32,000 nucleotides of DNA from Bellilinea caldifistulae (GCF_001306055.1 NZ_LGHJ01000001.1:20104-52103); one strand, 5' to 3'; counted from the stretch's first letter, positions 4,698 through 29,919 are shown. Program-made: numbers and translations. The notes: generated by a model from the sequence alone, not told the origin.

Positions 4698-5387
4698 TTA
4701 ACCCTGAGGGGGCGGTTCTTCCAGCAGGTCATCCGTGACCTCGGCGCCGGGCAGAAGGAATAAGTCGGGATTTTTCCACATATAGACCACCGCCCCGGCG
4801 CGGCTCTTGACCCCGATTTTTTGGTAAGCCATGGTTACATAGTTCTTAATTGTGCCGGGTTGGAGGGCAAGTTGTTCAGAAATTCGAGCGTTTTCATATC
4901 CCAGGGCAATCAACGTCAGCACCTGCCGTTCGCGATTGCTCAAAGGCGATCGCAGCGGTCGTTCCCGGAGAAAAGTGTCCAGCATCTCCGGCAGGGAAGT
5001 GAAATCAGTGCGGCCATCCAGTAAAAACTGGATAACCTTAGCCAATTTTTCCAACTCAATTTCCAGCGGCAGCCAGGCATGAATGGTGATACGCTGCACG
5101 GCGCGCAGGATGACCGGCAGGCTGCTGTGGGGGGCGATCAGCAACGTCTTTGTGGCGGTAGGCAGGGGGGGAGCGGAAGCGTTCTGAGTCAGAGCAGCAA
5201 GGCGTGGTGCATCGAGGATCAGCACATCCGGTTCTGGCCGTTGGGAATCGGCAGCGAGGAACGAATCATCATCGAGAATGTGGTATTTGAAGGAAGGGAA
5301 TTCTTCCTTCAGGAAAGCGATCAATCCTTTTTTCAGAAGCGGGACGGAAACGGCGATGCAGACCAGAGGGGGAAAGTTGTTCGCCAT
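4698..5387 (-). CDS. LuxR-family transcriptional regulator with a degenerate receiver-like N-terminal domain
   Basis: The C-terminal LuxR/GerE HTH is 'SNRERQVLTLIALGYENARISEQLALQPGTIKNYVTMAYQKIGVKSRAGAV'. The start is placed at Met27 of the 4698..5465 ORF because AAAGGA lies 5-6 nt upstream of that ATG. The longer form is possible. Confidence 0.8.
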   Translation of the reverse strand: MANNFPPLVCIAVSVPLLKKGLIAFLKEEFPSFKYHILDDDSFLAADSQRPEPDVLILDAPRLAALTQNASAPPLPTATKTLLIAPHSSLPVILRAVQRITIHAWLPLEIELEKLAKVIQFLLDGRTDFTSLPEMLDTFLRERPLRSPLSNRERQVLTLIALGYENARISEQLALQPGTIKNYVTMAYQKIGVKSRAGAVVYMWKNPDLFLLPGAEVTDDLLEEPPPQG

Positions 5388-5465
5388 TCGATCCTTTAGA
5401 AAATGGTTCGTGGGAAAAAAGAACGCCGGTAAGTTTATGGTAAGGGAATCAATCCAATTTGTCAA
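5322..5465. repeat. left copy of a ~144-bp direct repeat (LuxR promoter, RBS and first ~20 codons)
   Basis: Near-identical to 10795..10939 in the same orientation, with a few substitutions and one 1-nt indel by manual alignment. Confidence 0.9.
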
Positions 5466-5476
5466 TAGGGGTCAAA

Positions 5477-5534
5477 GTCATGTCAGGGGGCATGACCGGC
5501 GGTACTTCCCCTTTGTTCTTCAATTTGCTATGAT
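5477..5534 (+). promoter_or_regulatory. candidate operator dyad GTCATG-N8-CATGAC plus weak sigma70-like promoter (TTCCCC-17-TATGAT)
   Basis: Dyad at 5477..5496. TTCCCC at 5506..5511 and TATGAT at 5529..5534. GAGAGGA RBS before ATG 5572. The whole block repeats upstream of cassette 2. Confidence 0.4.
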
Positions 5535-5571
5535 GGCTTTGGTGAAAAAACGCAGAAGCAGAGAGGACGAT

Positions 5572-6426
5572 ATGTTCAGAAAACCCTATATTGTTTTGAT
5601 TGCGCTGCTGGTGCTGGCAGCGGGTTTCATCTTGTTGATGGCACAAAAACCGGGTGAGGCAAAAAGTGAAGCGGCAGCGCAGACGGCTTTACCAACGGCT
5701 GTGGGAGAAGTGATCCAAGCCGCGCAAAGCGTTACACCGGTCATGGCCGCAGAAGTCGAAATGAGCGCGGCACAGGTGCGCGAGGCTTTGGTCGAACGGG
5801 CAAAGCAACATCTCTTCAAACCCGGCTGGGTACTGGTGCGCGAAACTTTCACCGATTTCACCAAGGCCGAAGACTACGTTGTGGTTCCGATGAACGGACA
5901 AATCATCCCCAAGAACTGGGTGCGCGAAACATGGTTGTTGGTGGATGAAGGTTTACAGGTTAAGGCAATGTTTTCCGAGAAAAAAATGCTGGATGACACA
6001 ATCGTATCTTTGACGCGTGCCAGTGATGGATCTTTTGGAAAGGCGTTTAATGCCGAAATTCTTCCAAATGTTCAGATTGACTACTGGACGAAAACCGAAA
6101 CCTTGGACCGACTTATTGAGCAGGGTGAGACTCAAAGGGTTGTTTTTCAATTTCTTTCGCTGGATGGAAAGCGGGTTTTGTATGCAGTTTATTCAGACGT
6201 TTTTCCCTCCCCTATTCGTATGGAGGGGCTGAAACAACCCCTTATTTCGTTTAGCACTGAGGATCATTATGATTGGGAAATCGGTCAGTTTCTGTTCAGT
6301 GAGGGGTGGGCAACGCTGACAGATGGCAACCGCCAACTTGTTGGTCGGCTAGAAATGAGCATTGATTGCAATTCCACCCCACCGGATGCGGTTTTGGAGG
6401 GGTTTTCAATCACGCCGGAGGAATAA
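5572..6426 (+). CDS. signal-anchored extracytoplasmic protein of unknown function (cassette 1, large gene)
   Basis: 284 aa. An N-terminal hydrophobic helix 'IVLIALLVLAAGFILLM' is followed by an Ala/Glu-rich linker. It is a paralog of 7006..7860 and has the same length. Start 5572 is chosen because copy 2 has an in-frame stop 18 nt upstream of the equivalent ATG, and the upstream region differs by a 1-nt indel between copies. Confidence 0.8.
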   Translation: MFRKPYIVLIALLVLAAGFILLMAQKPGEAKSEAAAQTALPTAVGEVIQAAQSVTPVMAAEVEMSAAQVREALVERAKQHLFKPGWVLVRETFTDFTKAEDYVVVPMNGQIIPKNWVRETWLLVDEGLQVKAMFSEKKMLDDTIVSLTRASDGSFGKAFNAEILPNVQIDYWTKTETLDRLIEQGETQRVVFQFLSLDGKRVLYAVYSDVFPSPIRMEGLKQPLISFSTEDHYDWEIGQFLFSEGWATLTDGNRQLVGRLEMSIDCNSTPPDAVLEGFSITPEE

Positions 6427-6878
6427 TGAAATCAAAATCAATCTCATTTAGGGTTTTCACGATTGTCTTTCTATTTCTGGTAATCCTGTCAGGTGAGGTT
6501 ATTGCAGCCGGCGGCAGCAAAACCGTTTCCGGCTCGATATCGGGTATCACCTATTTTGCAGAAAAAAGTGTGTACACCTATACTACCTCATGGACTGCGT
6601 CTGCCAAAAGTAGCGCAATTTCAAACATCTCTATCATTGGCTATACCTGGTGGACGGTTTATCGAATCTGTACCGATGATGTCTATGCTTATTACTCTCG
6701 TTCTGAGAATCAAAGTAACCGCAACAGTAACTACTTTGAAGACATAAAATGGATTGACCACTATCAATATTCCTGCAATCCCGGATATTTTGTTAAGAAG
6801 TCAGCCAGTCTCGGTAATCACCAGTTTACGTTGAATTCTACCCATCAGTACCCTTATGTGGAATATGTCTATCCTTAG
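6426..6878 (+). CDS. small secreted Tyr/Trp/Ser/Thr-rich protein with two Cys (cassette 1, small gene)
   Basis: 150 aa. Its ATG overlaps the upstream stop (TAATG) and GGAGG lies 5-6 nt upstream. The signal peptide is 'FRVFTIVFLFLVILSGEVIAA'. Paralog of 7857..8312. Confidence 0.8.
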   Translation: MKSKSISFRVFTIVFLFLVILSGEVIAAGGSKTVSGSISGITYFAEKSVYTYTTSWTASAKSSAISNISIIGYTWWTVYRICTDDVYAYYSRSENQSNRNSNYFEDIKWIDHYQYSCNPGYFVKKSASLGNHQFTLNSTHQYPYVEYVYP

Positions 6879-6911
6879 AAGAGAATAGGACCCTTTTTCG
6901 CTATGTTCAAA

Positions 6912-6969
6912 GTCATGGTGGGGGGCGTGACCGGCGGTACTTCCCCTTTGTTCTTCAATTTGCTATGAT
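6912..6969 (+). promoter_or_regulatory. second copy of dyad (GTCATG-N8-CGTGAC) plus TTCCCC-17-TATGAT promoter block
   Basis: Dyad at 6912..6931 with one arm mismatch. TTCCCC at 6941..6946 and TATGAT at 6964..6969. Confidence 0.4.
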
Positions 6970-7005
6970 GGCTTTGGTGAAAAACGCTGAAGCAGAGAGG
7001 ACGAT

Positions 7006-7860
7006 ATGTACAGAAAACCCTATATTGTTTTGATTGCGCTGCTGGTGCTGGCAGCGGGTTTCATCTTGTTGATGGCACAAAAACCGGGTGAGGCAAAAAG
7101 TGAAGCGGCAGCGCAGACGGCTTTACCAACGGCTGTGGGAGAAGTGATCCAAGCCGCGCAAAGCGTTACACCGGTCATGGCCGCAGAAGTCGAAATGAGC
7201 GCGGCACAGGTGCGCGAGGCTTTGGTCGAACGGGCAAAGCAACATCTCTTCAAACCCGGCTGGGTGATGGTGCGCGAGACGCTGACGAACTTCACCAACC
7301 GCGAGGAATATGTTGTGGTTCCAATGAACGGACAAATCATCCCCAAGAACTGGGTGCGCGAAACATGGTTGTTGGTGAATGAGGACTTAAAAGTAGTGGC
7401 GGGTTATTCTGTTGTAAAAAGTTTTAAAGGAGAACCTCTACTTGAGACAATCGTCAGTGATGGTTCTTTTGGAAAGATGATCCAACCAGAAAATTTACCC
7501 GGCTGGCAAGAGGAACACTGGCTATATCTTGACCTGTTCGAAAGAATGATCGAGTACGATGGCGGTAAAAGCGCAACTTTCTCCCTTATCGAACAGGGTG
7601 CCAAGCGTTTGCTGCGGGTCTTTTCCCAAGATTTCTATCCCTCTGCCGGTTATACCGAAGGGGTGGAAGGAGCCATTGTTTCATCCTTTTCAACCTCCTA
7701 TTATGACTGGGAAACTGGTCAATTTTTGCTCAGCGAGGACTGGGCAGTTTTGACCGATGGCAGTCATAAACAAATCAATCGCCTCGAGGTGGAAGTTGAA
7801 TATTCACCTGCCCCGCCTGCCGAGGTAGTTGCCCGATTCACCGGCGAGATAAAGCAATGA
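7006..7860 (+). CDS. signal-anchored extracytoplasmic protein of unknown function (cassette 2, large gene)
   Basis: 284 aa. The first ~125 residues are almost identical to 5572..6426. The C-terminal ~160 residues are strongly diverged but still alignable ('SDGSFGK', 'YDWExGQFL.SE.WA.LTDG'). Confidence 0.85.
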   Translation: MYRKPYIVLIALLVLAAGFILLMAQKPGEAKSEAAAQTALPTAVGEVIQAAQSVTPVMAAEVEMSAAQVREALVERAKQHLFKPGWVMVRETLTNFTNREEYVVVPMNGQIIPKNWVRETWLLVNEDLKVVAGYSVVKSFKGEPLLETIVSDGSFGKMIQPENLPGWQEEHWLYLDLFERMIEYDGGKSATFSLIEQGAKRLLRVFSQDFYPSAGYTEGVEGAIVSSFSTSYYDWETGQFLLSEDWAVLTDGSHKQINRLEVEVEYSPAPPAEVVARFTGEIKQ

Positions 7861-8312
7861 TCACAAACAGGCATCAAAAGCGGCTTATTCTATGGCTGGC
7901 TTTTATTTTGCTGGTCACCCAATTTGGTGAGAGTTCGGCTGGTGGCGGCAGCAAAACCGTTTCCGGCTCCATTTCGGGTATCACCTATTTTGCAGAAAAA
8001 AGTGTGTACACCTACACCAATACATGGACTGCGTCTGTCAAAAGTAGCACCGTCACAAATATCTCAATTATTGGCTACACCTGGTGGACGGTTTATCAGA
8101 TTTGCACAAACGATGTTTATTCTTACTATATTCGGTCAGAGAATAAAAATAACCGAAATAGCAGTTATTACGAGGACTCAAAATATGTTTATTACAAAGA
8201 TTACCCATGTCCAGGTGGTTCGTATATCAAAAAAACAGCCAGTCTCGGTAATCACCAGTTTACGTTGAATTCTACCCATCAGTACCCTTATGTGGAATAT
8301 GTCTATCCTTAG
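7857..8312 (+). CDS. small secreted Tyr/Trp/Ser/Thr-rich protein with two Cys (cassette 2, small gene)
   Basis: 151 aa with an ATGA start/stop overlap. Its signal peptide is unrelated to that of copy 1. The mature part is highly similar ('GGSKTVSGSISGITYFAEKSVYTYT...ASLGNHQFTLNSTHQYPYVEYVYP'). Confidence 0.85.
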   Translation: MITNRHQKRLILWLAFILLVTQFGESSAGGGSKTVSGSISGITYFAEKSVYTYTNTWTASVKSSTVTNISIIGYTWWTVYQICTNDVYSYYIRSENKNNRNSSYYEDSKYVYYKDYPCPGGSYIKKTASLGNHQFTLNSTHQYPYVEYVYP

Positions 8313-8340
8313 AAGAGAATAGGACCCTTTTTCGCTATGT

Positions 8341-8378
8341 TCAAAGTCATGGTGGGGAGCATGACCGGCGGCACTTCC
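8341..8378 (+). repeat. partial third copy of the unit start, including dyad GTCATG-N8-CATGAC at 8346..8365
   Basis: The sequence after the stop at 8312 repeats the inter-unit tail and the dyad. Homology ends after 'acttcc'. Confidence 0.8.
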
Positions 8379-8537
8379 TATAGCCGACCTTTTTTGCTAT
8401 AAAAAAATTAGTCTTTTTTATATCTCACCGTGGGTGGAAAATCGCCCCCTTGAGCAAGAGGATTTTTCCTTCATTTTTTGAATTTTTATTCACCCCCCGT
8501 TTGCGCTAAAAGACAAAATTGGAACTAAAGTTGGCGA

Positions 8538-8750
8538 ATGGATATAAAACTGAGATTGACCCAACGGGAGAAGCAAATACTGGAATTGTTGTGCGAGGGA
8601 AAGACCAATTCTCAAATTGCGAGAAACTTGCAAATTTCCCCAAAAACGGTCGAATCTAATCTGACCAGAGTATATCGAAAATTGGGCGTGAACAATCGCA
8701 CTGCAGCCGTTGCAGCATATTTTGTTGAATTAAATCGAGAGAAAAATTAA
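8538..8750 (+). CDS. stand-alone LuxR/GerE-type HTH transcriptional regulator
   Basis: 70-aa ORF consisting of the HTH only: 'LTQREKQILELLCEGKTNSQIARNLQISPKTVESNLTRVYRKLGV'. Confidence 0.8.
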   Translation: MDIKLRLTQREKQILELLCEGKTNSQIARNLQISPKTVESNLTRVYRKLGVNNRTAAVAAYFVELNREKN

Positions 8751-8836
8751 GGGAAATCCTTATATTGAAGTTTGTCTTGAGAGAGGGTATATTTAAATCG
8801 GCCGAATGGGTGCAAGAGAGAAAAGGGGAGGGAAGT

Positions 8837-8944
8837 AATGAATAAGAGAAACCTTTTTAATCTTGGAATGATTGGTTTGGTCTTTATGGTGGGCTTTTCC
8901 GTGGTGGGGGGAGCGCCGTTACCCGATGGGGGAATTCGTGATGA
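8837..8944 (+). other. 35-codon mini-ORF encoding a signal-peptide-like sequence, probably the detached 5' end of the CHAP gene
   Basis: A strong GGGGAGGG RBS lies 6-8 nt upstream of ATG 8837. Translation is 'MNKRNLFNLGMIGLVFMVGFSVVGGAPLPDGGIRE*'. It is out of frame with the downstream CHAP ORF. A third frame is open over 8871..9014. Confidence 0.4.
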
Positions 8945-9081
8945 AACCTGCCGGGAAGGGTTATCTGAATTTGTGACCGAAGCGAAGGATTGCTCAAATC
9001 GGCATTACGATTGATCAGCCGCAGCCGTTTGTTGACCCGCAGGCGATTATCCGGCGTTATACGGCTTGGTGTTCGCAAGGA

Positions 9082-9786
9082 TTGCTGGATTTGGATATCT
9101 GGCAAACGATGGGAATGACAATGGATGAGTGGATGAAATGGTATGAAGATACCCGTCAGCCGTTGGGAACGGTTGCGTCTCGCATCACTATCGGTGAAAT
9201 TGAAGCGGTTCGTTATGAAGAATCCACTCTTTGGACGACCCTGTGGAGCGGAGAAAAATATATCTATCGCTTGTGGTACACCCATAGGGGAGATCAATCG
9301 GGTGAGGAATTTTATAAAAGGGTCTTGAACTCCGTTGGTTTTTTGAATGAGGAGCCGATCAAGGGGGAAGATGCATCCCAATCGTTTCAAGGTTTATCGC
9401 TGGAAGGCTTTGCCACAGTCAATCCTCTTGTCACAACCTGTTGTGGATATACATCGCCGGGTAATCCCTTTGAGTGCTGTAACAACAAGGGAAATTGTGT
9501 CTGGTGGGTGTATTACAAATATGGTTATGTGCCGTTCCGAGGAGATGCAGGTAAGTGGTATGGACAAGTGCCCGATTACCCGGATTGGCGCAGGGGAAGA
9601 TATCCGAATAGAGGGATGAATATCGCGTGGTGGTCAGGATCTCCTGGTCACGTTGCCTTTATAGCGAACTATCCTGGAGGAGGGACAGTAACCATAACCG
9701 AGATGTTGATTTGTACATCCTGCGGAAGGACGCGTAATTTGAGTGTAACCGCTCCCGAAGGATACATGTGGACAATTTACAACTGA
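9082..9786 (+). CDS. CHAP-domain (NlpC/P60 superfamily) cysteine peptidase/amidase, 5' end apparently disrupted
   Basis: The C-terminal half shows a CHAP-like Cys...His pattern ('GNCVWWVYYKYGY ... SPGHVAFIA'). The reading frame is open from 8977, but the first start candidate is TTG 9082 with poor RBS context. There is no signal peptide in this frame. Confidence 0.65.
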   Translation: MLDLDIWQTMGMTMDEWMKWYEDTRQPLGTVASRITIGEIEAVRYEESTLWTTLWSGEKYIYRLWYTHRGDQSGEEFYKRVLNSVGFLNEEPIKGEDASQSFQGLSLEGFATVNPLVTTCCGYTSPGNPFECCNNKGNCVWWVYYKYGYVPFRGDAGKWYGQVPDYPDWRRGRYPNRGMNIAWWSGSPGHVAFIANYPGGGTVTITEMLICTSCGRTRNLSVTAPEGYMWTIYN

Positions 9787-9829
9787 GCAATTCGGTTTTA
9801 ATGATTTTCTCTTTTGGAGGTCAGGGCAG

Positions 9830-10573
9830 ATGATAAAAAGCATTGTTCGTCAGCTTCTTCTGATTGCAGGGTTGGTTTTTATAAGCAATTGCAGGGGAGA
9901 AATTGACAACTTCCCTTCTACTCCAATTGAGACTCGAAATTTGCCAACAATTACCCCCTCATCAGAGATAAAATCGACACCTCCCCAAATGGTTGATGAA
10001 ATTGAAACGGTCATTCCACTCAAACCCACCCGAATTCCAACCCCTACGGAAGAGGATGAAATATTTTTCCAAGAATATTGTGGCAAGGAATTTGTCTCTG
10101 CTGTGAAGCTCCTTCCTGAAAGGGAAATAAATTGGTTTCGATATAACCACTACCTTTACCCTTTCTCAATAGCATTCCCCTCGGATTGGAATCTCATAGA
10201 ATGTGATAATTCTATATACCTGTTTCCGGATAGTGAGCCTTCGATTCGTCTGGCAGTCCGTTTCAAATACTCGAATGAAAAGAAACATATCTTAAGAACC
10301 GGCGTGCCGGCGGGTGACGCGGTTCATGTTGGCACGGTGCAGTTCGTCGGTCAAACCATTCGCAAGACAATCATCCGCTACGAGGGCAAGGATAAAGTTG
10401 TCCTCTACGGCTACAAAGAGGATTTGCCCTATCAAATCCCGGTCGGTAATCTGATCTTTACCATCAGTCTGGATGATGTTGGTTCTCGTTATTATGAGGA
10501 TGTCGAGCTTTCGCCCGAAATTCAACAGCTGGCCGATGCCATTGTCGAAAGCATTCGGCTGACTTCGCCATAG
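9830..10573 (+). CDS. putative lipoprotein of unknown function
   Basis: 247-aa ORF with GGAGG about 9 nt upstream. Signal peptide with lipobox-like 'LVFISNC', followed by a Pro/Thr-rich linker. Confidence 0.7.
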   Translation: MIKSIVRQLLLIAGLVFISNCRGEIDNFPSTPIETRNLPTITPSSEIKSTPPQMVDEIETVIPLKPTRIPTPTEEDEIFFQEYCGKEFVSAVKLLPEREINWFRYNHYLYPFSIAFPSDWNLIECDNSIYLFPDSEPSIRLAVRFKYSNEKKHILRTGVPAGDAVHVGTVQFVGQTIRKTIIRYEGKDKVVLYGYKEDLPYQIPVGNLIFTISLDDVGSRYYEDVELSPEIQQLADAIVESIRLTSP

Positions 10574-10684
10574 GCATGAGCGATTCGATAAACTTCGTGC
10601 GCCGAATTGGCCATGAAGTGCTTTGGCTGTTTTGCCGCCCTCGTGTGTGGAAAAACATGTCGAACGTCGCTGGCACGCCCCGTT

Positions 10685-10861
10685 TTACTGTTTCATGACC
10701 AGTCCCGTTGCACTGGCAAATATCAACGCTCCCATCGCTACTGGCGGGGCGAGCATGCCAGGGCTGCAGTGTGTGCCTCCACGAAAAAGGTGAACAATCC
10801 TGTTTTTCAGAAGTGGGACGGAAACGGCGATGCAGACCAGAGGGGGAAAGTTGCTCGCCAT
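10685..10861 (-). pseudogene. truncated/chimeric remnant of the LuxR regulator 5' end
   Basis: 'MASNFPPLVCIAVSVPLLK' matches the start of the 4698..5387 product ('MANNFPPLVCIAVSVPLLKK'). It then diverges and stops after 58 codons. It carries the same upstream RBS and promoter sequence. Confidence 0.7.
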
Positions 10862-10939
10862 TCGATCCTTTAGAAAATGGTTCGTGGGAAAAAAGAACGC
10901 CGGTAAGTTTATGGTAAGGGAATCAATCCAATCTGTCAA
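10795..10939. repeat. right copy of the ~144-bp direct repeat
   Basis: Near-identical to 5322..5465. Confidence 0.9.
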
Positions 10940-11087
10940 AGCACCCTTGAACCTGCTTTGAAATGCGCTATTTCGCAAAACGGCGAAGATCAGCCGAGGC
11001 GACGGACTTCCCCGCTGTCGAAAAGAGAAACAAATCCCCTCGCCAAACCTTGACGTGGTTTACCGTCAACTCCCAAAGGGCAATTTC

Positions 11088-16511: not shown

Positions 16512-17342
16512 ATGAACGATATTCCCCCCCTCCAATCCCGTCTGAATCAAATCATCCAGGCGGACTGCCTGAAAGAACTGGCCGATTTTCCGCCAGAATC
16601 GGTGGATTTGAGTGTATTTTCCCCGCCTTATGATGATATTCGGGATTATAAGAAAAACTGGCGCTTTGATTTTGAAACATTGGGAAAAGAACTGCTACGG
16701 GTGACTAAAGAGGGCGGTGTAGCGGTAGTCGTGATTGGAGATGCAACTCGCAACTTTGCCAAAACGCTCACTTCGTTTCGACTGGCGGTTAATTGGGTGG
16801 ATCAAATTGGATGGAAGCTGTTTGAAACCGTGATCTACAAACGCGACGGCAACCCCGGCGCCTGGTGGAACACCCGTTTTCGGGTGGATCACGAATACGT
16901 CTTCATGTTTTTCAAGGGACAAAAGCCGAAAACTTTCCACAAAGAACATCTGATGGTGCCCAGCAAACACGCCGGCAAAATCTATACCGGCACCGACCGA
17001 CTGACCAATGGCGGTTTCAAGGTCATTCAACCCAAAGCCGTCAATCCAATGAAATGCCGCGGCACAGTCTGGCAATACGCCACCAGTAATACCGAAGGCA
17101 ACCGCCTGAAACTCCAGCACCCGGCCACTTTTCCCGATAGGCTGGCCGAGGATTTGATTCTGTGTTTTTCTGAGCCCGGTGATGTAGTGCTTGACCCGAT
17201 GTGTGGCAGCGGTACGACGTGCGTCATGGCAAGAAAAAATTATCGCAATTTCATCGGCATTGAAATCAGTGAAGAATACTGTCAGATTGCCCGGAAAAGA
17301 CTGGAAGTGGAAGTTTATCCCCAACAGGAGCGATTGTTTTAG
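16512..17342 (+). CDS. beta-class DNA methyltransferase (N4-cytosine or N6-adenine; SPPY motif IV)
   Basis: 276 aa. Motif IV 'VFSPPYDD' precedes motif I 'VLDPMCGSGTT'. The C-terminal 'FIGIEISEEYCQIARKRL' is typical of the N4/N6 MTase family. Confidence 0.88.
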   Translation: MNDIPPLQSRLNQIIQADCLKELADFPPESVDLSVFSPPYDDIRDYKKNWRFDFETLGKELLRVTKEGGVAVVVIGDATRNFAKTLTSFRLAVNWVDQIGWKLFETVIYKRDGNPGAWWNTRFRVDHEYVFMFFKGQKPKTFHKEHLMVPSKHAGKIYTGTDRLTNGGFKVIQPKAVNPMKCRGTVWQYATSNTEGNRLKLQHPATFPDRLAEDLILCFSEPGDVVLDPMCGSGTTCVMARKNYRNFIGIEISEEYCQIARKRLEVEVYPQQERLF

Positions 17343-17344
17343 AA

Positions 17345-18022
17345 ATGCTGCTACAACAAGACGTCCTTGAAGATATTGAGATTGCCTTACAACGGTTAAG
17401 TAATCTTGCTACTTTCTGGGATGGGAAAAAAAGTATCTTGGAACTCAAAACAGCCAACTATAACTGGCGGCAAATGGAATGGTGGTCGTTTTATTTTGAG
17501 TATTTGTGTTTTCAAAAATTACGAGAGCATTTTCAAATACCCGGCGATCGTTTTGGAAGGGTAAAAACGGCTTCTTTTGACCTCAAAAGAAACATTAATT
17601 GGGATCTTAAAGCCAAAGCAATAAAATCCGATGACCATCGCTCAATTCTCAATGATATGTCAGCCATACAGCGATCAATTGAACAATACGGTGCTCATGG
17701 ATTAATCATTGGATTATGCGATGTGGAATATAACGATAATAATCGCACCTTCCAAACGTGGCATGAGCAGCTTAAGGGTGGTAAATCGAAATACGAGATA
17801 GAACGCTTACAACGCACCAGCATTTCGCGGTACCGCAAAACTCGGGCTGACTTATTGGAAATTCTTTTCCTCGTCATAAACCGAGAAAACGAGCAGTTTT
17901 TGGAAATTTATCATCAGGGCAGAAACAGCAACGGTCAGCCGCGTCCGCCAAAATACATGCTTAATTACGACGAAATAGACCGATTTTTAGTCAAAGAATT
18001 ACGATATTCCGATTCTGAATGA
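17345..18022 (+). CDS. putative type II restriction endonuclease partnered with the 16512..17342 methyltransferase
   Basis: 225-aa A+T-rich ORF starting 2 nt after the MTase stop. A possible nuclease signature 'FDL...WDLKAK' is present. The assignment rests mainly on context. Confidence 0.55.
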   Translation: MLLQQDVLEDIEIALQRLSNLATFWDGKKSILELKTANYNWRQMEWWSFYFEYLCFQKLREHFQIPGDRFGRVKTASFDLKRNINWDLKAKAIKSDDHRSILNDMSAIQRSIEQYGAHGLIIGLCDVEYNDNNRTFQTWHEQLKGGKSKYEIERLQRTSISRYRKTRADLLEILFLVINRENEQFLEIYHQGRNSNGQPRPPKYMLNYDEIDRFLVKELRYSDSE

Positions 18023-26694: not shown

Positions 26695-27537
26695 TCACAC
26701 CGATGCAACTTCCGCACGTTTCCGCCAGAAGATCCAGATCAGCAGCAAGCCCATCAACGCCAAACCAATTCCAAATTCATCAATCAAATAGGGTGATAGT
26801 GAAGATTGACCCGTCAGGGGTGTGAACACCCCCTGGATAAAGATGTTATGACTGGCGTGGAGCAAAACGGCCGGCCAGAGGCTGCCCGATTTCAACCTCA
26901 ACCACGCCATCGTAAAACTGATTCCCAACACCATCAGGGTAAAGCAAACCAGTCCAAACCACACAGGTGTGCCGGGGTTGTGATAATCGGCAAAGAGAAT
27001 AAGAGGAAAATGCCACACAGCCCAAATAATTCCGCTGATGACCGATGCTGAGGTGAAAGAGCCCGCTTTAGCCAATTCAGGAACGAATAGACCACGCCAC
27101 CCAATTTCCTCCCCCAAGGCAGCAAAGGTAGAAAACAGCATTCCGAAAGTTGCCATGTTCAAAACATGACTGACCACAAAATTCAGCGGGCTGATTGTTT
27201 CTCCTGTCTGTTGAGATACCTGCAACGCCAGTTGGTCTATATTCAGAGGCGCAGATCCACTCAACCAGACCGAACCGTATACTACCAGTCCGTAGATAAC
27301 GGGTAAGAAATATGCCAGCAGCAGGTAGCGAAATGGCCTTAATTTCCATCCCAAACCGCGTAATTTCTTTTCAAAGATCAACTGGGTGAGTATGCCGGCA
27401 ATCCCGGGGCACCACATCAAACCGATTGTGTAGTTGCCAACCGAACCAGTGGACACGATTCTGGCATAAAAAAACGAGCTTAAGGCAAAGGTCAGTAACA
27501 GAAAAACGATAATCTTTGGTTTTGTTGTGGTTTTCAT
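26695..27537 (-). CDS. CPBP-family intramembrane glutamic endopeptidase (CAAX protease / Abi-like)
   Basis: Motifs 'LGEEIGWRGLFVPEL', 'WAVWHFP' and 'LHASHN'. The start is set at the Met preceded by AAAGGA. The ORF is open to 27603. It is A+T-richer than the copy at 20050. Confidence 0.85.
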   Translation of the reverse strand: MKTTTKPKIIVFLLLTFALSSFFYARIVSTGSVGNYTIGLMWCPGIAGILTQLIFEKKLRGLGWKLRPFRYLLLAYFLPVIYGLVVYGSVWLSGSAPLNIDQLALQVSQQTGETISPLNFVVSHVLNMATFGMLFSTFAALGEEIGWRGLFVPELAKAGSFTSASVISGIIWAVWHFPLILFADYHNPGTPVWFGLVCFTLMVLGISFTMAWLRLKSGSLWPAVLLHASHNIFIQGVFTPLTGQSSLSPYLIDEFGIGLALMGLLLIWIFWRKRAEVASV

Positions 27538-27828
27538 TGTGAGTATCCTTTTTTCCTGTAGTTGAATTGATGCGTCTTGCGAAGGCGCCCAAACCATATT
27601 CATCTACGTGGAAGAGAATTATCAGGTTTCGAACGGGAAGTAAAACTCTTTGTGAAACTCTCAAAATCTTTACACCGATCTACCCGTACAGCCACACCGC
27701 TGCCGCAATCATCACCCGCCCGATCAGGTGGATGTTTGGATGAGTCATCAATCAAAATGGGCGGTAAGAGGTTTTCTCTAAAAGTTTTTTGCTCTTATTG
27801 AGTATAATCAAAGGGAAGGCATTTAGAT

Positions 27829-29013
27829 ATGTCAGAATATAAATCAATCCACTTTTCATTAAACTTTTTATGTGATAACCAGATCGTGGAGCGGGTTAAT
27901 CAATATCTGGCACAGCAACCCGAACCATTGCCGTATATCGAGCCAAATGCCGATGGCTATGTCTTCTACTTCCATACGCTTGACTTGCAATTACTGAAAA
28001 GACATCTTCAAGCCTTGACGGCTCGTGATCTTTTTTCTGCCGACCCGACCCATGTTTCGGATTCAGAAAAAGTGGCAAAAGTCCTCCAAACCGTTTACGA
28101 CAACGTAAGCAAAATTGGTAGTTATGGCATCAAAGCAGGAAAGCGTCAATACGTTGGCTTTAATACTGAACGGAAGGTAAGGAATAGAAAAACAAAAGAG
28201 GAAAATAGATCTCAGTATTACTATGCCCGCAGTAACAACTTCTCAAAAGAGAATAATTCCTTACCAGAAGAGTTAACCAATACCATCCTTTGTGGTGACA
28301 GCCGGGATGTCTTAAAAACCGTCCCTGATAATTCCATAGACCTGATTTTTACATCACCCCCCTATAACTTTGGATTGGAATATGATCAACAAGACGATGC
28401 CCACAAGTGGGAACAGTATTTTGACAAGTTGTTTGCCATTTTTGACGAATGTATAAGAGTATTGAAGTATGGCGGTCGAATAGCTGTCAACATTCAGCCC
28501 TTGTTTTCTGACTATATTCCCTCTCATCACATGATTAGTAACTTCTTTCTGTCCAGAAAGATGATCTGGAAAGGTGAAATACTCTGGGAAAAAAATAACT
28601 ACAATTGCAAATACACTGCTTGGGGGTCGTGGAAAAGCCCTAGTAATCCCTACCTCAAATACACGTGGGAGTTTATCGAAATTTTTGCCAAAGGGACACT
28701 GAAAAAAGCAGGGAAACCTGAACATGTAGATATCTCTGCGGAAGAGTTCAAAGAATGGGTGGTGGCAAAATGGAACATTGCCCCCGAACGGAAAATGAAA
28801 GAATTTGGACATCCTGCCATGTTTCCAGAAAAGTTAGCAGAGCGGGTTATCAAATTATTTTCTTTTGTGGGGGATGTGGTGTTAGATCCCTTTAACGGGG
28901 TTGGTACGACAACTGCTGTAGCCAAAAAACTGGGACGGAAGTTTATCGGAATCGATATTTCCCAAGAATACTGCGAGATAGCAAAAAAGAGGATTAACCT
29001 TGATCTATTTTAG
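27829..29013 (+). CDS. beta-class DNA methyltransferase (SPPY motif IV) with a ~150-aa N-terminal extension
   Basis: 394 aa. Motif IV is 'IFTSPPYNF' and motif I is 'VLDPFNGVGTT'. 'FIGIDISQEYCEIAKKRI' is present. A TATAAT lies at 27803..27808 upstream. The gene is A+T-rich. Confidence 0.88.
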   Translation: MSEYKSIHFSLNFLCDNQIVERVNQYLAQQPEPLPYIEPNADGYVFYFHTLDLQLLKRHLQALTARDLFSADPTHVSDSEKVAKVLQTVYDNVSKIGSYGIKAGKRQYVGFNTERKVRNRKTKEENRSQYYYARSNNFSKENNSLPEELTNTILCGDSRDVLKTVPDNSIDLIFTSPPYNFGLEYDQQDDAHKWEQYFDKLFAIFDECIRVLKYGGRIAVNIQPLFSDYIPSHHMISNFFLSRKMIWKGEILWEKNNYNCKYTAWGSWKSPSNPYLKYTWEFIEIFAKGTLKKAGKPEHVDISAEEFKEWVVAKWNIAPERKMKEFGHPAMFPEKLAERVIKLFSFVGDVVLDPFNGVGTTTAVAKKLGRKFIGIDISQEYCEIAKKRINLDLF

Positions 29014-29022
29014 GAGGATGGA

Positions 29023-29733
29023 ATGCCAAAAAGTATAGCTGAAATTAGAAATGCTTATAACCTTTTAGTAGGCGGTATTGATGAGAGAGCACATACAGAA
29101 AACGATGAAGGTAACAGATCTTATGGTGGAATTATAAGATCAGCAAAAGGAATTCTTGTAGAAAGTATTGCTAAAAATTTAGTTGAAATTGCATGGGATG
29201 AATTAGAAGGAAATCCTAATAGATTAAGTTTTTTCAAAGAAACGATACGAATCCCCTTGAAAATCGAATATTTGAAGCGAGTGCGACCTGTTGAAGTGGC
29301 AGACTATATTAAGGCACATATTGAACAATATTTTTATGGTCTTAGGACAGATGTCCACGTGAATGTGGACGGTAGATTTATCATGGGTATCGAATGTAAG
29401 GCTTACACCGAAAATGCTATGCTAAAAAGAATTCTGGTGGATTTCTCTTTGCTTAAGCAAGTTGTACCAAACTTGAGATGCGTATTGTTCCAATTAGAAA
29501 GCCAGCTAACCGGTGATTACTGTGAGCCATTGAAACCCGTGATTTATGGCAGCCCTTCGACCCATACGCTTCTTTCTTATTTCGATGTGGACTTGAATAT
29601 CATCACCTTGCTGGAAGGCGAAAGAAAGGTTGACGAGCCAATTCATAAGCAGCCTTTTTTCAAAGAGATGACCGAGCCAGCATTAAGAAAAGCTGTTAAC
29701 ACGTTGAAAGACCTTCTCCGTGAGTTTGCATAA
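29023..29733 (+). CDS. putative type II restriction endonuclease (PD-ExK-like 'D...GIECK')
   Basis: 236-aa A+T-rich ORF. A perfect AGGAGG lies 5 nt upstream of the ATG and 9 nt after the MTase stop. The candidate catalytic signature is 'TDVHVNVDGRFIMGIECKAY'. Confidence 0.6.
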   Translation: MPKSIAEIRNAYNLLVGGIDERAHTENDEGNRSYGGIIRSAKGILVESIAKNLVEIAWDELEGNPNRLSFFKETIRIPLKIEYLKRVRPVEVADYIKAHIEQYFYGLRTDVHVNVDGRFIMGIECKAYTENAMLKRILVDFSLLKQVVPNLRCVLFQLESQLTGDYCEPLKPVIYGSPSTHTLLSYFDVDLNIITLLEGERKVDEPIHKQPFFKEMTEPALRKAVNTLKDLLREFA

Positions 29734-29833
29734 AATGATGAGAACAACCCATAAGATGAACATTGCGATGACAACTACCAGAAACCTACTTGTCTTGAAT
29801 GAAAATAGCGATTTCAGGTTGAACTTCTGACTA

Positions 29834-29852
29834 GCTTTGAACAAGTCAAAGC
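29834..29852 (+). terminator. hairpin GCTTTGA-acaag-TCAAAGC followed by a T-rich stretch
   Basis: Perfect 7-bp stem about 100 nt downstream of the endonuclease stop. The following sequence is 'agcatttgttt'. Confidence 0.35.
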
Positions 29853-29857
29853 AGCAT

Positions 29858-29886
29858 TTGTTTATCCTGCTTTTACAGTTTATAAT
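29858..29886 (+). promoter_or_regulatory. sigma70-type promoter TTGTTT-17-TATAAT
   Basis: Hexamers at 29858..29863 and 29881..29886, 34 nt upstream of ATG 29920. Confidence 0.5.
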
Positions 29887-29919
29887 CTCTGCTGGCTACT
29901 TGCCACGGAGAATCTCACC

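What the first reader, a model, noticed from the sequence alone, without database searches (positions are those of the whole stretch)
5472..8378. Tandem duplication of a complete two-gene expression unit encoding an anchored 284-aa protein and a secreted 150-aa protein
A ~1.43-kb unit occurs twice head to tail, followed by the first ~38 bp of a third copy. Each unit contains a dyad, a promoter-like block, an RBS, a 284-aa signal-anchored protein, a translationally coupled 150-aa secreted protein and a conserved tail. Neither protein shows a motif I can assign to a known family. Each unit keeps its own promoter block. Start/stop overlaps (TAATG and ATGA) imply that the two proteins are made together and probably act as an extracytoplasmic pair.
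Basis: seen in the sequence. Interest (0 to 1): 0.7.

Follow-up and report, generated by a model that had tools for sequence, protein, structure and literature searches.

The report
Duplicated two-gene envelope operon in Bellilinea
The tandem repeat is real: it is an old, still-recombining duplication of a two-gene operon found only in Anaerolineae, encoding a probably membrane-tethered LolA/LprG-like protein and its small secreted partner; this is a tidy case of concerted evolution in two unannotated families, not a new kind of system.

Summary
Two head-to-tail units (5472-6906 and 6907-8340, period 1434-1435) each carry a conserved dyad/-10 block, a 284-aa gene (A) and an overlapping 150/151-aa gene (B).

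The units are only 74% identical overall, and the identity is mosaic. Tracts of 255 nt and 122 nt are perfectly identical, while the core is about 45-50% identical with synonymous sites saturated.

Both unit types have orthologues in other Bellilinea-clade assemblies. Copy number there is 1 or 2, and both orders (1-2 and 2-1) occur. The 5' tract is identical between paralogues within a genome but differs between genomes, which indicates gene conversion. Both copies are under purifying selection.

The "start of a third copy" is a third copy of the promoter/operator element. It sits upstream of the next gene, a LuxR-type helix-turn-helix protein.

A is the tethered partner. Its AlphaFold2 model most resembles LolA/LprG/LppX-like lipid-carrier folds, although the TM-scores are low. 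B matches no known family, and its model failed.

In every locus retrieved with a B homologue, an A homologue precedes it. In all but the IS-interrupted loci the two genes overlap or lie within 3 nt of each other. One lineage encodes a natural A-B fusion.

My best reading is a LuxR-regulated extracytoplasmic A:B complex present in two specificities. Interest is moderate.

The parts
4698..5387 (-). Divergently transcribed LuxR/GerE-family regulator gene (229 aa as annotated in the source record; the open frame runs on to 5465)
   Evidence: Pfam GerE E=8e-16 at residues 174-228. Annotated as 229 aa in L001. It sits in this position next to A-B in all Bellilinea-clade loci. NarL/LuxR-type regulators also lie upstream of A-B in the remote loci L037 and L035; that call was made by eye from the N-terminal sequences, not by a family scan.
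5437..5465 (-). Sigma-70-like promoter TTGACA-17-TACCAT for the LuxR-family gene, abutting the dyad
   Evidence: Consensus scan, 10 of 12 matches. The function is inferred.
5472..5549 (+). Promoter/operator copy 1: dyad GTCATG-N8-CATGAC (5477-5496), conserved CCGGCGGTACTTCC, extended -10 TGcTATGAT (5526-5534)
   Evidence: The block is conserved across genomes whose backbone dS is 0.5-0.8.
5572..6426 (+). A1: 284-aa protein with an N-terminal hydrophobic segment, a disordered stalk and a LolA/LprG-like domain (type 1)
   Evidence: Orthologues are 83-93% identical in L004, L006 and L014. The AlphaFold2 model was built for the paralogue A2 (61.6% identical) and its Foldseek hits are LolA/LprG-like.
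6426..6878 (+). B1: 150-aa secreted partner (signal peptide plus a ~122-aa Tyr/Ser/Thr-rich, mostly beta mature part with 2 Cys), translationally coupled through TAATG
6907..6984 (+). Promoter/operator copy 2 (dyad 6912-6931; TGcTATGAT 6961-6969)
7006..7860 (+). A2: 284-aa paralogue (type 2), 61.6% aa identity to A1
   Evidence: AF2 model m06639cb40a11 has mean pLDDT 70, with the core at 80-94.
7857..8312 (+). B2: 151-aa secreted partner (type 2), coupled through ATGA, 70.9% aa identity to B1
8341..8403 (+). Promoter/operator copy 3 (dyad 8346-8365; TGcTATAAA 8395-8403), upstream of the 70-aa LuxR-type HTH gene
   Evidence: The same element follows the last unit, in front of a different downstream gene, in L004, L006 and L007.
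8538..8750 (+). 70-aa stand-alone LuxR/GerE HTH protein, the first gene after the array
   Evidence: Pfam GerE E=3.4e-21.
5577..5831 (+). Gene-conversion tract 1: 255 nt identical to 7011-7265 (A codons 3-87)
   Evidence: Paralogue pS=0 over A codons 1-60, while orthologues have pS 0.03-0.45 over the same codons.
6802..6923 (+). Gene-conversion tract 2: 122 nt identical to 8236-8357 (last 25 codons of B, the tail and the left arm of the dyad)
5945..6510 (+). Type-specific variable core (A residues ~125-284 plus the B signal peptide); its counterpart is 7379-7945
   Evidence: Identity between paralogues is 37-62%, against 78-100% between orthologues within the Bellilinea clade; the divergent single-unit L007 is 53-78%. 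Paralogue pS is 0.68-0.80.
10803..10939 (-). Orphan second copy (98%) of the LuxR-gene promoter plus its first ~19 codons, at the distal edge of the low-GC block
   Evidence: Direct repeat 5329-5465 / 10803-10939. The promoter scan finds the same hexamers.

Best explanation
What it is (shown). The window carries two paralogous copies of a two-gene operon, A-B, that is conserved and so far seen only in Anaerolineae (Chloroflexota). A is a 270-320-aa extracytoplasmic protein with an N-terminal hydrophobic anchor, which in about 13% of family members is a lipoprotein lipobox instead. The anchor is followed by a disordered stalk and a beta-rich domain. B is a ~150-aa signal-peptide protein whose gene overlaps or abuts the end of A.

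In the Bellilinea clade the operon sits next to a divergent LuxR-family regulator gene. Each unit is preceded by a ~75-bp element: a 20-bp dyad, a conserved GC-rich box and an extended -10. A further copy of this element follows the array, in front of the next gene.

How the array arose and is maintained (inferred from comparative data). Unequal homologous recombination between flanking copies of the element duplicated the unit. Even the single-unit genome L007 has the unit bracketed by two copies of the element. The two copies then diverged into two types so old that their synonymous sites are saturated. Gene conversion keeps the promoter, the first ~87 codons of A, and the 3' end of B with its tail identical within a genome. 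The same repeats allow loss of a unit and changes of order. The locus has also been exchanged between Bellilinea lineages more recently than their backbone genes diverged.

How it works (inferred). The LuxR-family protein binds the dyad and controls both units, its own divergent promoter and the downstream gene. A and B are made in fixed proportion by translational coupling and exported. A, with its LolA/LprG-like half-barrel, holds B at the outer face of the membrane as a 1:1 complex. This is analogous to the LolA-like lipoprotein GerS binding its secreted partner CwlD. The A ectodomain from about residue 125 onwards and a patch of B (residues ~104-126) are type-specific and always co-inherited, so the two units probably form two non-interchangeable A:B pairs. 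The biochemical activity of the complex remains unknown.
For: Anatomy and repeat.

Two old types with orthologues in other assemblies. A1-type orthologues are 83-93% and A2-type 80-84% aa identical in L004, L006 and L014. Both orders occur: 1-2 in the window, L004 and L005, and 2-1 in L006, L014, L015 and L028. Single units occur in L003, L007 and L013.

Concerted evolution. Paralogues within a genome are 95-100% identical over the 5' ~300 nt, while orthologues are 80-97% identical there. The core is 37-62% identical between paralogues and 78-100% between Bellilinea-clade orthologues. Genome-specific N-terminal residues are shared by the P0005/P0009, P0006/P0014 and P0003/P0012 pairs. In A codons 1-60, pS is 0 between paralogues against 0.03-0.45 between orthologues.

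Purifying selection. dN/dS between orthologues is 0.13-0.51 for the A variable part and 0.05-0.11 for mature B.

Horizontal exchange. Backbone dS between the window and L004 is 0.47-0.56. For the same genome pair the LuxR gene gives 0.10, the A1 core 0.06 and B1 0.13. The block has 41-52% GC against ~60% in the flanks.

Regulatory element. It is conserved in front of every unit and after the last unit, and it brackets the single unit in L007. The 19-mer occurs 3 times against 0 expected. A divergent sigma-70-like promoter abuts the dyad.

A-B coupling. All B homologues, including those at 27-40% identity in 16 metagenome loci, are preceded by an A homologue.

Fusion. P0180 has an A domain at residues 42-259 (E=4.5e-61), a 20-aa linker and a mature B domain at 280-395 (E=1.8e-28), without a B signal peptide. 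A partial copy, P0034, lies on a second contig.

Fold of A. Foldseek against the PDB returns LmcA (7shw), DUF1329 (4z48), LprG (3mha) and LppX (2byo), with probability 0.85-0.99 and E=2e-4 to 8e-3.

Tethering. Of 135 A-family proteins, 18 have a lipobox-like Cys and 113 have a hydrophobic N-terminus.

Precedent. A LolA-like lipoprotein that binds a secreted protein partner is described in bioRxiv 10.1101/2025.01.13.632879.
Against: - The fold assignment for A is weak. TM-scores are only 0.22-0.46. No Pfam, NCBIfam or PDB sequence-profile link was found.
- B could not be modelled (pLDDT 42) and matches nothing, so its activity is unknown.
- No direct test of A:B binding was possible.
- The simple sigma-70 scan does not flag the block as a promoter, and no terminator separates the units, so read-through from unit 1 could also express unit 2.
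- The N-terminal segment of A could be a cleaved signal peptide (LMA|QK), so tethering is not proven for the window's proteins.
- Some A homologues are followed by unrelated secreted proteins: an SNase in L018 and a Cys-rich 185-aa protein in L012. A is therefore not strictly B-specific.
- The single-unit MAG L003 could be an assembly collapse rather than a real deletion.
- Binding of the LuxR protein to the dyad is inferred from position and conservation only.
Confidence: 0.55

Rival explanations
1. Polymorphic effector-immunity (bacteriocin-like) cassettes. B is a secreted toxin or effector, and A is a membrane-tethered extracytoplasmic immunity or inhibitor protein. Two units would give two specificities, and the locus would be swapped between strains under frequency-dependent selection.
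For: - Two long-lived divergent types, with saturated synonymous sites between them, are found across lineages.
- The locus has been exchanged horizontally: dS is 0.06-0.13 against 0.5 for the backbone.
- Copy number and order vary.
- The units lie in a low-GC block next to a CHAP-domain hydrolase.
- A homologues are paired with other secreted proteins, including an SNase nuclease.
- The A ectodomain is acidic and mature B is mildly basic.
Against: - Mature B is the most conserved part of the unit (dN/dS 0.05-0.11; 71% identical between types). The putative immunity protein is the variable one.
- Distant Anaerolineae keep one A-B pair in a stable housekeeping context, between pheST and a solute-binding-protein gene.
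- A natural A-B fusion would tie a diffusible toxin to its own immunity protein.
- No toxin, defence or phage family matches.
- The barnase/RNase Sa lead for B was rejected.
Confidence: 0.12
2. A is mainly a lipid, glycolipid or lipoprotein carrier of the LprG/LppX/LolA kind that serves the Anaerolineae envelope. B is an accessory or cargo protein of that pathway, not a stably bound protein partner.
For: The best structural matches are lipid-binding LolA-like proteins: LmcA, LprG, LppX and DUF1329. Part of the family are lipoproteins. In distant lineages the pair is single-copy in a housekeeping context.
Against: TM-scores are low, and a hydrophobic cavity could not be examined. The strict gene coupling and the A-B fusion point to a protein-protein relationship. 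No transporter gene is consistently adjacent.
Confidence: 0.2
3. Surface fibre or matrix system. B is a secreted, Tyr/Ser/Thr/Asn-rich beta subunit that polymerises (adhesin, sheath or amyloid-like). A is its membrane anchor or nucleator, under a CsgD-like LuxR-family regulator. This would be analogous to TapA-TasA or CsgB-CsgA.
For: Mature B is 20% aromatic, 13-15% Tyr, and rich in Ser and Thr. Its low-confidence model contains only beta strands in the mature part. The adjacent regulators are of the LuxR family, and the stand-alone HTH scores E=1e-13 against the CsgD model, which reflects HTH homology only.
Against: B has an invariant Cys, His, Lys and Asn and a conserved second Cys within the Bellilinea clade, which is more typical of a compact globular domain. 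The 1:1 fusion protein fits a complex better than a polymer. B has no repeats. The AlphaFold2 failure may simply reflect a 7-sequence alignment.
Confidence: 0.1
4. Assembly artefact, or a very recent duplication with no biological meaning.
For: Some tracts are perfectly identical (255 and 122 nt).
Against: The units differ at 26% of positions. The same array occurs in independent assemblies and species. Both copies are under purifying selection.
Confidence: 0.01

Closest known systems
LolA-like / PLLLF superfamily (LolA, LolB, LppX, LprG, LprF, RseB, GerS, SsdC; SCOP SSF89392), plus LmcA and DUF1329, which are named here only as the top Foldseek hits
   Same: The A ectodomain is predicted as a helix followed by about 10 antiparallel strands with internal helices. 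Its best PDB matches are LmcA, DUF1329, LprG and LppX. Like LprG, LppX, LolB and GerS, it is exported and membrane-tethered, and 13% of the family carry a lipobox.
   Different: No sequence-profile link to any Pfam or NCBIfam LolA-like family was found. TM-scores are only 0.22-0.46. Most members use a hydrophobic N-terminal segment rather than a lipid anchor. The family signature (PGW ... LPNGQxIP ... ExW) is its own.
GerS-CwlD of Clostridioides difficile (a LolA-like lipoprotein that binds and allosterically activates a secreted amidase)
   Same: It offers a working model: a membrane-tethered LolA-like protein whose job is to bind a specific exported protein rather than a lipid (bioRxiv 10.1101/2025.01.13.632879). 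Here that model is supported by strict gene coupling and a natural A-B fusion.
   Different: B is not an amidase and matches no enzyme family. The organism is a non-sporulating Anaerolineae member. No binding data exist.
Tandem paralogue arrays under concerted evolution by gene conversion (for example duplicated surface-protein or tuf-type gene pairs)
   Same: Identity between paralogues within a genome exceeds identity between orthologues in defined tracts, with sharp boundaries. Copy number changes through flanking direct repeats.
   Different: Conversion is confined to the regulatory/5' end and the 3' end. A type-specific core is preserved across species, so the array holds two functional variants rather than identical copies.
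Divergent LuxR-family regulator / target operon pairs with a palindromic operator (lux-box type, or csgD-csgBA type)
   Same: A GerE/LuxR-type gene is divergent from the target operon. A 20-bp dyad lies between the two promoters, centred roughly 55 nt from either inferred start site. The -35 is poor and the -10 is extended, which suggests dependence on an activator.
   Different: The regulator has no recognisable autoinducer-binding or canonical receiver domain in Pfam. Binding is untested. The operator/promoter element is itself repeated three times and acts as the recombination substrate.

Membership tests
LolA-like / PLLLF superfamily (for protein A) | Unclosed antiparallel beta-barrel (~11 strands) with helices filling or lidding the barrel | tested here: inconclusive
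   In the AF2 model (mean pLDDT 70, core 80-94) the order of elements is helix, 4 strands, 2 helices, 5 strands, helix. Foldseek hits to LmcA, DUF1329, LprG and LppX have probability 0.85-0.99 and E=2e-4 to 8e-3, but TM-scores are only 0.22-0.46.
LolA-like / PLLLF superfamily (for protein A) | Match to a curated sequence model of the superfamily (Pfam LolA, LolB, LppX_LprAFG, MucB_RseB, DUF4367 and similar) | tested here: not met
   There were no such hits for A1 or A2, or for 62 family members scanned at E<=0.05. A profile search of PDB sequences found nothing relevant.
LolA-like / PLLLF superfamily (for protein A) | Exported, and usually tethered to a membrane by a lipid or peptide anchor | tested here: met
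   Of 135 full-length family members, 113 have a hydrophobic N-terminus and 18 have a lipobox-like Cys. AF2 places a helix at residues 6-23, followed by a disordered stalk. Cleavage versus anchoring is not resolved for the window's proteins.
LolA-like / PLLLF superfamily (for protein A) | Hydrophobic ligand-binding cavity | not testable with these tools
   Model coordinates cannot be inspected here.
GerS-CwlD-type pair (LolA-like tether plus secreted enzyme) | The partner is an N-acetylmuramoyl-L-alanine amidase (CwlD / Amidase_3) | tested here: not met
   B has no Pfam or NCBIfam match. All 17 B-family members were scanned.
GerS-CwlD-type pair (LolA-like tether plus secreted enzyme) | Direct, specific binding between the LolA-like protein and its partner | not testable with these tools
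   The support is indirect only: invariant adjacency and coupling, and the fusion protein P0180. No structure-prediction jobs remained for a complex.
Polymorphic toxin / bacteriocin-immunity cassette | A recognisable toxin or bacteriocin domain in the secreted protein | tested here: not met
   Pfam, NCBIfam, PADLOC, PHROGs and the PDB gave nothing. hhalign against barnase and RNase Sa gave probability 0.1%.
Polymorphic toxin / bacteriocin-immunity cassette | The toxin part is hypervariable, and the distribution is patchy or mobile | tested here: inconclusive
   The locus is exchanged horizontally and varies in copy number. However, mature B is strongly conserved (dN/dS 0.05-0.11), and distant lineages keep one pair in a fixed housekeeping context.
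Tandem paralogues under concerted evolution (gene conversion) | In the converted tract, paralogues within a genome are more alike than orthologues between genomes, and the reverse holds outside it | tested here: met
   The 5' tract is 95-100% identical between paralogues in the window, L004 and L006, and 80-97% between orthologues. The core is 37-62% between paralogues and 78-100% between Bellilinea-clade orthologues. pS is 0 against 0.03-0.45. Exact tracts are 255 and 122 nt long.
LuxR-family regulator with palindromic operator | A GerE/LuxR HTH gene adjacent to the target, and a conserved dyad in the target promoter | tested here: met
   GerE domain E=8e-16. The GTCA-N12-TGAC core is conserved in every copy across the Bellilinea-clade genomes but is not apparent upstream of A in the distant L009. 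Actual binding is not testable here.

The most novel reading that the evidence does not exclude
The two A:B types may be ancient, horizontally exchanged specificity alleles of a cell-surface recognition or effector-immunity system in multicellular filamentous Anaerolineae. In this reading the tethered LolA-like A discriminates cognate from non-cognate B, so copy number and type combination would define compatibility groups between filaments. A and B would then be founding members of a new surface-recognition module.
Probability: 0.1. Interest if true: 0.7.

Novelty: new variant of a known kind. Interest (0 to 1): 0.4.

Why it matters
This work defines two unannotated protein families that always travel together in Anaerolineae, a class that is abundant in digesters and sediments but poorly understood.
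- Family A has about 146 clusters at 50% identity.
- Family B has at least 15 clusters at 90% identity.

It also gives the pair a testable model: a LolA/LprG-like tether bound to an orphan secreted partner, under a LuxR-type regulator. The source appears to be a cultured type strain, so transcript mapping, pull-downs and EMSA are feasible.

The locus is a clean natural example of partial gene conversion. The regulatory and anchoring ends are homogenised, while two functional cores are preserved across species. A promoter element doubles as the recombination substrate.

This is a useful annotation and evolutionary case, not a new class of system.

Tried and rejected
Searches that found nothing.
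- Pfam, NCBIfam, PADLOC and PHROGs scans of A1, A2, B1 and B2 gave nothing above noise. Scans of 62 A-family and 17 B-family members also gave nothing.
- PDB sequence searches with single proteins and with profiles gave nothing.
- Scans of viral contigs for A and B found no relatives, so there is no phage link.
- Rfam and tRNA scans of the window found nothing.
- Cluster look-ups of distant A homologues returned no names or taxa.

Leads rejected.
- From memory, the GNHxF and YPYVEY motifs of B recalled the C-terminal GDHYxTF motif of barnase/RNase Sa. hhalign gave 0.1% probability for both, so the lead was rejected.
- B is not an internal relative of A. hhalign aligned only 5 columns, at the start Met.

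Limitations.
- The B structure prediction used only 7 sequences and failed (pLDDT 42). I did not run a fold search on it. Both prediction jobs were then spent, so neither a deeper B alignment nor an A:B complex could be modelled.
- The search for related loci rejected the broad A alignment because it was too divergent. With the close alignment it found only 3 GTDB loci, all in the Bellilinea clade.
- TRF does not report the 1434-nt repeat because its longest period is 500.

Assembly artefact: rejected, as set out in the observation check.

Full report
1. THE OBSERVATION

The repeat is real. The repeat finder reports direct-repeat families with 1434/1435-nt spacing from 5472 to 8378. Unit 1 (5472-6906) and unit 2 (6907-8340) align over 1443 columns with 74% identity.

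Each unit encodes a 284-aa protein: A1 at 5572-6426 and A2 at 7006-7860. Each also encodes an overlapping small protein: B1 at 6426-6878 (150 aa, TAATG junction) and B2 at 7857-8312 (151 aa, ATGA junction).

The dyad GTCATG-N8-CATGAC lies at 5477-5496, 6912-6931 (one mismatch) and 8346-8365. The adjoining 19-mer occurs three times, against none in 100 shuffles.

The window maps to NCBI assembly GCA_001050215.2, scaffold DF967971.1 (3.7 Mb). From memory this is Bellilinea caldifistulae GOMI-1 (genome paper PMC4574363), but I could not tie the accession to the name with a tool. The close relatives are labelled Bellilinea sp. or Chloroflexota.

The same two-unit array appears in independent metagenome contigs (L002, L027). 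The units differ at a quarter of their positions, so an assembly artefact is excluded.

2. A MOSAIC, NOT A SIMPLE COPY

Identity between the units is very uneven.
- 5577-5831 equals 7011-7265 exactly (255 nt).
- 6802-6923 equals 8236-8357 exactly (122 nt).
- 5970-6460 is only 42-64% identical in 50-nt windows, mostly 42-52%.

At the protein level A1 and A2 are 61.6% identical, and B1 and B2 are 70.9% identical.

The conserved parts are:
- the regulatory block;
- A residues 1 to ~125;
- the N-terminal half of mature B;
- the last 25 codons of B plus the tail.

The variable parts are A residues ~125-284, the B signal peptide, and a B patch at residues ~104-126.

3. COMPARATIVE EVIDENCE

A search of 5.8 billion proteins found only 15 clusters related to A2, all from Chloroflexota or Bellilinea sources.

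Layout of the locus. Loci fetched around these proteins show the same layout:
- B12-binding/MeaB genes;
- a divergent LuxR-family gene;
- one or two A-B units;
- a variable set of small secreted-protein genes (LuxR-type HTH, CHAP, PrcB_C, DUF2690, and 231-247-aa and 321-aa proteins of unknown function);
- guaA.

Both unit types have orthologues elsewhere. A1-type orthologues are 83-93% identical and A2-type 80-84%. The order is 1-2 in the window, L004 and L005. It is 2-1 in L006, L014, L015 and L028. Single units occur in L003, L007, L013 and L016. No array has three units.

Gene conversion.
- Paralogues within a genome are 95-100% identical over the first ~300 nt in the window, L004 and L006. 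Orthologues are 80-97% identical there.
- In the core the pattern reverses. Paralogues are 37-62% identical, and orthologues within the clade are 78-100% identical.
- Genome-specific N-terminal substitutions are shared by the two paralogues of a genome: P0005/P0009, P0006/P0014 and P0003/P0012.
- Synonymous divergence between paralogues is zero in A codons 1-60 in the window and L006, but saturated (pS 0.68-0.80) in the core.
- This is the signature of gene conversion acting on an old duplication.
- L014 shows the process is episodic. Its 5' tracts are only 77-78% identical, while a different tract in B is 98% identical.

Selection. Both copies are under purifying selection. dN/dS between orthologues is 0.13-0.51 for the A core and 0.05-0.11 for mature B.

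Horizontal exchange. The locus does not share the history of the backbone. Between the window and L004, flanking housekeeping genes have dS of 0.47-0.56. For the same genome pair the LuxR gene has 0.10, the A1 core 0.06, B1 0.13, B2 0.21 and the A2 core 0.37. The block is also low in GC, at 41-52% against ~60%. Recombination between Bellilinea lineages has therefore moved these units more recently than the genomes diverged.

4. THE REGULATORY ELEMENT AND HOW THE ARRAY FORMS

I aligned the 135 nt upstream of every unit and the 140 nt after every array. One element recurs:
- GTCAAAGTCATG-N8-(C/G/T)(A/G)TGAC, followed directly by CGGCGGTACTTCC;
- about 20 nt further on, TTTGCTATGAT, which is an extended -10 (TGnTATGAT).

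The element precedes each unit. In most genomes it also follows the last unit, where it precedes a different gene: the 70-85-aa LuxR-type HTH gene in the window and L004, a DUF2690 gene in L006, and a 235-aa gene in L007.

In the window it spans 8341-8403 and keeps TGcTATAAA at 8395-8403.

The single-unit genome L007 has its unit bracketed by two copies 1444 nt apart. That is the substrate needed for unequal crossing-over to produce exactly the P-AB-P-AB-P structure seen here. The same repeats would allow loss of units. L003 may be such a deletion, or a MAG assembly collapse; its sequence is otherwise identical to L004.

A sigma-70-like promoter on the minus strand (TTGACA-17-TACCAT, 5465-5437) serves the LuxR-family gene and abuts the dyad. 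The dyad centre lies roughly 55 nt from either inferred start. Control of both promoters by the LuxR-family protein is an inference from position and conservation.

Two caveats apply. The two-hexamer scan does not flag the plus-strand block, because its -35 is poor. No terminator-like hairpin separates the units.

NarL/LuxR-type regulators also sit upstream of A-B in two distant lineages. In L037 the gene is intact, and in L035 it is disrupted by an IS element. I made this call by eye from the N-terminal sequences, not by a family scan.

5. WHAT THE PROTEINS ARE

A: family size and fold.
- An exhaustive HMMER search with the A profile finds 146 representative clusters at E<=1e-3. Nearly all are 250-320 aa long and have the same layout. 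None has a Pfam family.
- The AF2 model of A2 has mean pLDDT 70, with the core at 80-94. It shows an N-terminal helix (residues 6-23), a disordered stalk (~25-58), then a helix and about ten strands with two internal helices.
- Foldseek against the PDB puts LmcA, a DUF1329 protein, LprG and LppX on top. Probability is 0.85-0.99 and E is 2e-4 to 8e-3, but TM-scores are only 0.22-0.46.
- I therefore treat "LolA/LprG-like half-barrel" as likely but not established.

A: tethering and signature.
- Of 135 full-length family members, 18 carry a lipobox-like Cys and 113 have a plain hydrophobic N-terminus. Together with the stalk, this fits a domain tethered to the outer face of the membrane.
- The window's proteins could still be cleaved after LMA|QK.
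- The family signature is PGW ... (L)PNGQxIP(K)NW ... ExW. It lies partly in a low-confidence loop.

B.
- A profile search finds 15 clusters, all of whose source labels, where present, are Chloroflexota or Anaerolineaceae.
- Mature B is ~122 aa, 20% aromatic (13-15% Tyr), rich in Ser and Thr, and mildly basic. It has two Cys.
- Family-wide invariant residues are K48, G73, W77, T78, C83, N99, G131, H133 and F135.
- The AF2 run failed (pLDDT 42 with a 7-sequence alignment).
- Nothing matches in Pfam, NCBIfam, the PDB, PADLOC or PHROGs.

6. A AND B BELONG TOGETHER

I annotated all fetched loci with HMMs for A and B. Every B homologue is directly preceded by an A homologue, including those at 27-40% identity from 16 metagenome contigs. 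The junction is a 1- or 4-nt overlap or a gap of at most 3 nt. The only exception is L009/L011, where an IS element has inserted between the two genes.

In distant Anaerolineae the pair is single-copy. It sits between pheST and a solute-binding-protein gene.

One lineage encodes a fusion protein, P0180 (401 aa). Its parts, in order, are:
- a signal/anchor;
- an A domain at residues 42-259 (E=4.5e-61);
- a 20-aa linker;
- a mature B domain at residues 280-395 (E=1.8e-28), with no B signal peptide.

A partial copy of the same fusion, P0034, lies on a second contig. This Rosetta-stone case is the strongest available evidence that A and B act together on the same side of the membrane, probably 1:1.

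Within the Bellilinea clade, A type and B type are never mixed.

A few A homologues are followed by other secreted proteins instead of B. L018 has an SNase-domain protein, and L012 has a Cys-rich 185-aa protein. Some A homologues carry other C-terminal extensions. A may therefore be a general tether with exchangeable partners.

7. MECHANISM AND COMPARISON WITH KNOWN SYSTEMS

The best-supported model has three parts:
- a LuxR-regulated operon;
- a product that is a complex of tethered A with secreted B;
- two non-interchangeable versions of that complex.

The nearest working precedent is GerS-CwlD. There a LolA-like lipoprotein binds and activates a secreted amidase rather than carrying lipid (bioRxiv 10.1101/2025.01.13.632879). 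Membership in that system is not claimed, because B is not an amidase.

The lipid-carrier reading (LprG/LppX-like; LmcA, PMC8972800) remains possible for A.

An effector-immunity reading is suggested by the long-lived types, the horizontal exchange and the variable copy number. Three observations weaken it:
- the strong conservation of mature B;
- the stable housekeeping context in distant lineages;
- the fusion protein.

A fibre/anchor reading rests only on composition.

8. VERDICT

New here:
- the ancient-paralogue and gene-conversion history;
- the recombining promoter element and its third copy;
- the link to the LuxR-family regulator;
- the horizontal exchange;
- the likely fold of A;
- the family-wide A-B coupling and the fusion protein.

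The biochemical function remains unknown.

This is a new variant of known kinds: a LolA-like tether with a protein partner, and a tandem paralogue pair under concerted evolution. Interest is moderate at 0.4.

Noticed in passing
window 5329-5465 and 10803-10939: A 137-nt direct repeat (98% identical, 5474 nt apart). The first copy holds the promoter and first ~19 codons of the LuxR-family gene. The second is an orphan copy at the far edge of the low-GC block, so the whole block (A1B1, A2B2, HTH gene, 58-aa gene, CHAP gene, 247-aa gene) is bracketed. L014 has a comparable extra copy of the LuxR-A intergenic region at 5387-5515, in front of a 231-aa gene.
   Followed up: partly
window 5000-11000: This block has 41-52% GC, against ~60% in the flanks. 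Its synonymous divergence from relatives is much lower than that of the backbone genes (0.06-0.2 against ~0.5). That suggests the block is exchanged between Bellilinea lineages. Downstream of it the synteny with relatives (321-aa gene, guaA) is lost, and the window has an HTH_34 gene plus an ABC transporter instead.
   Followed up: partly
window 8838-9014, 9082-9786, 9830-10573: Three further exported-protein genes follow the array. One is a 58-aa hydrophobic peptide with two Cys, one is a CHAP-domain protein (E=1.5e-8), and one is a 247-aa protein with no family. Relatives carry PrcB_C or DUF2690 proteins at this position, so this is a variable secretome island that may share the same regulatory element.
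   Followed up: no
window 17001-18000 and 27001-30000: Two further low-GC segments (0.43 and 0.40-0.44). The first lies just after an N6_N4 DNA methyltransferase gene (16512-17342) and holds a 225-aa ORF (17345-18022), possibly a restriction-modification pair. The second holds ORFs of 394 and 236 aa.
   Followed up: no
window 30019-30063: An 18-nt tandem repeat, 2.5 copies (CCCCTGCCCACCCAAACG), lying within the 650-aa ORF at 29920-31872 (and the opposite-strand ORF at 30049-31761).
   Followed up: no
L009 2645-3412, also L010 and L011: In the most divergent Bellilinea-like relative (A 36% identical), an IS element (DDE_Tnp_1 transposase) sits between A and B and splits the otherwise invariant pair.
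   Followed up: no
L025 6101-6999: In the HGW-Chloroflexi-3 genome the A gene is called as two overlapping ORFs (216 and 101 aa). This is a likely frameshift or pseudogene, while B remains intact.
   Followed up: no
P0119 (482 aa) and P0069, P0070, P0133: Some distant A-family proteins are longer. P0119 has two A domains in tandem. The others carry N- or C-terminal extensions; Pfam scans of P0069, P0070 and P0119 found no family, and P0133 was not scanned.
   Followed up: no
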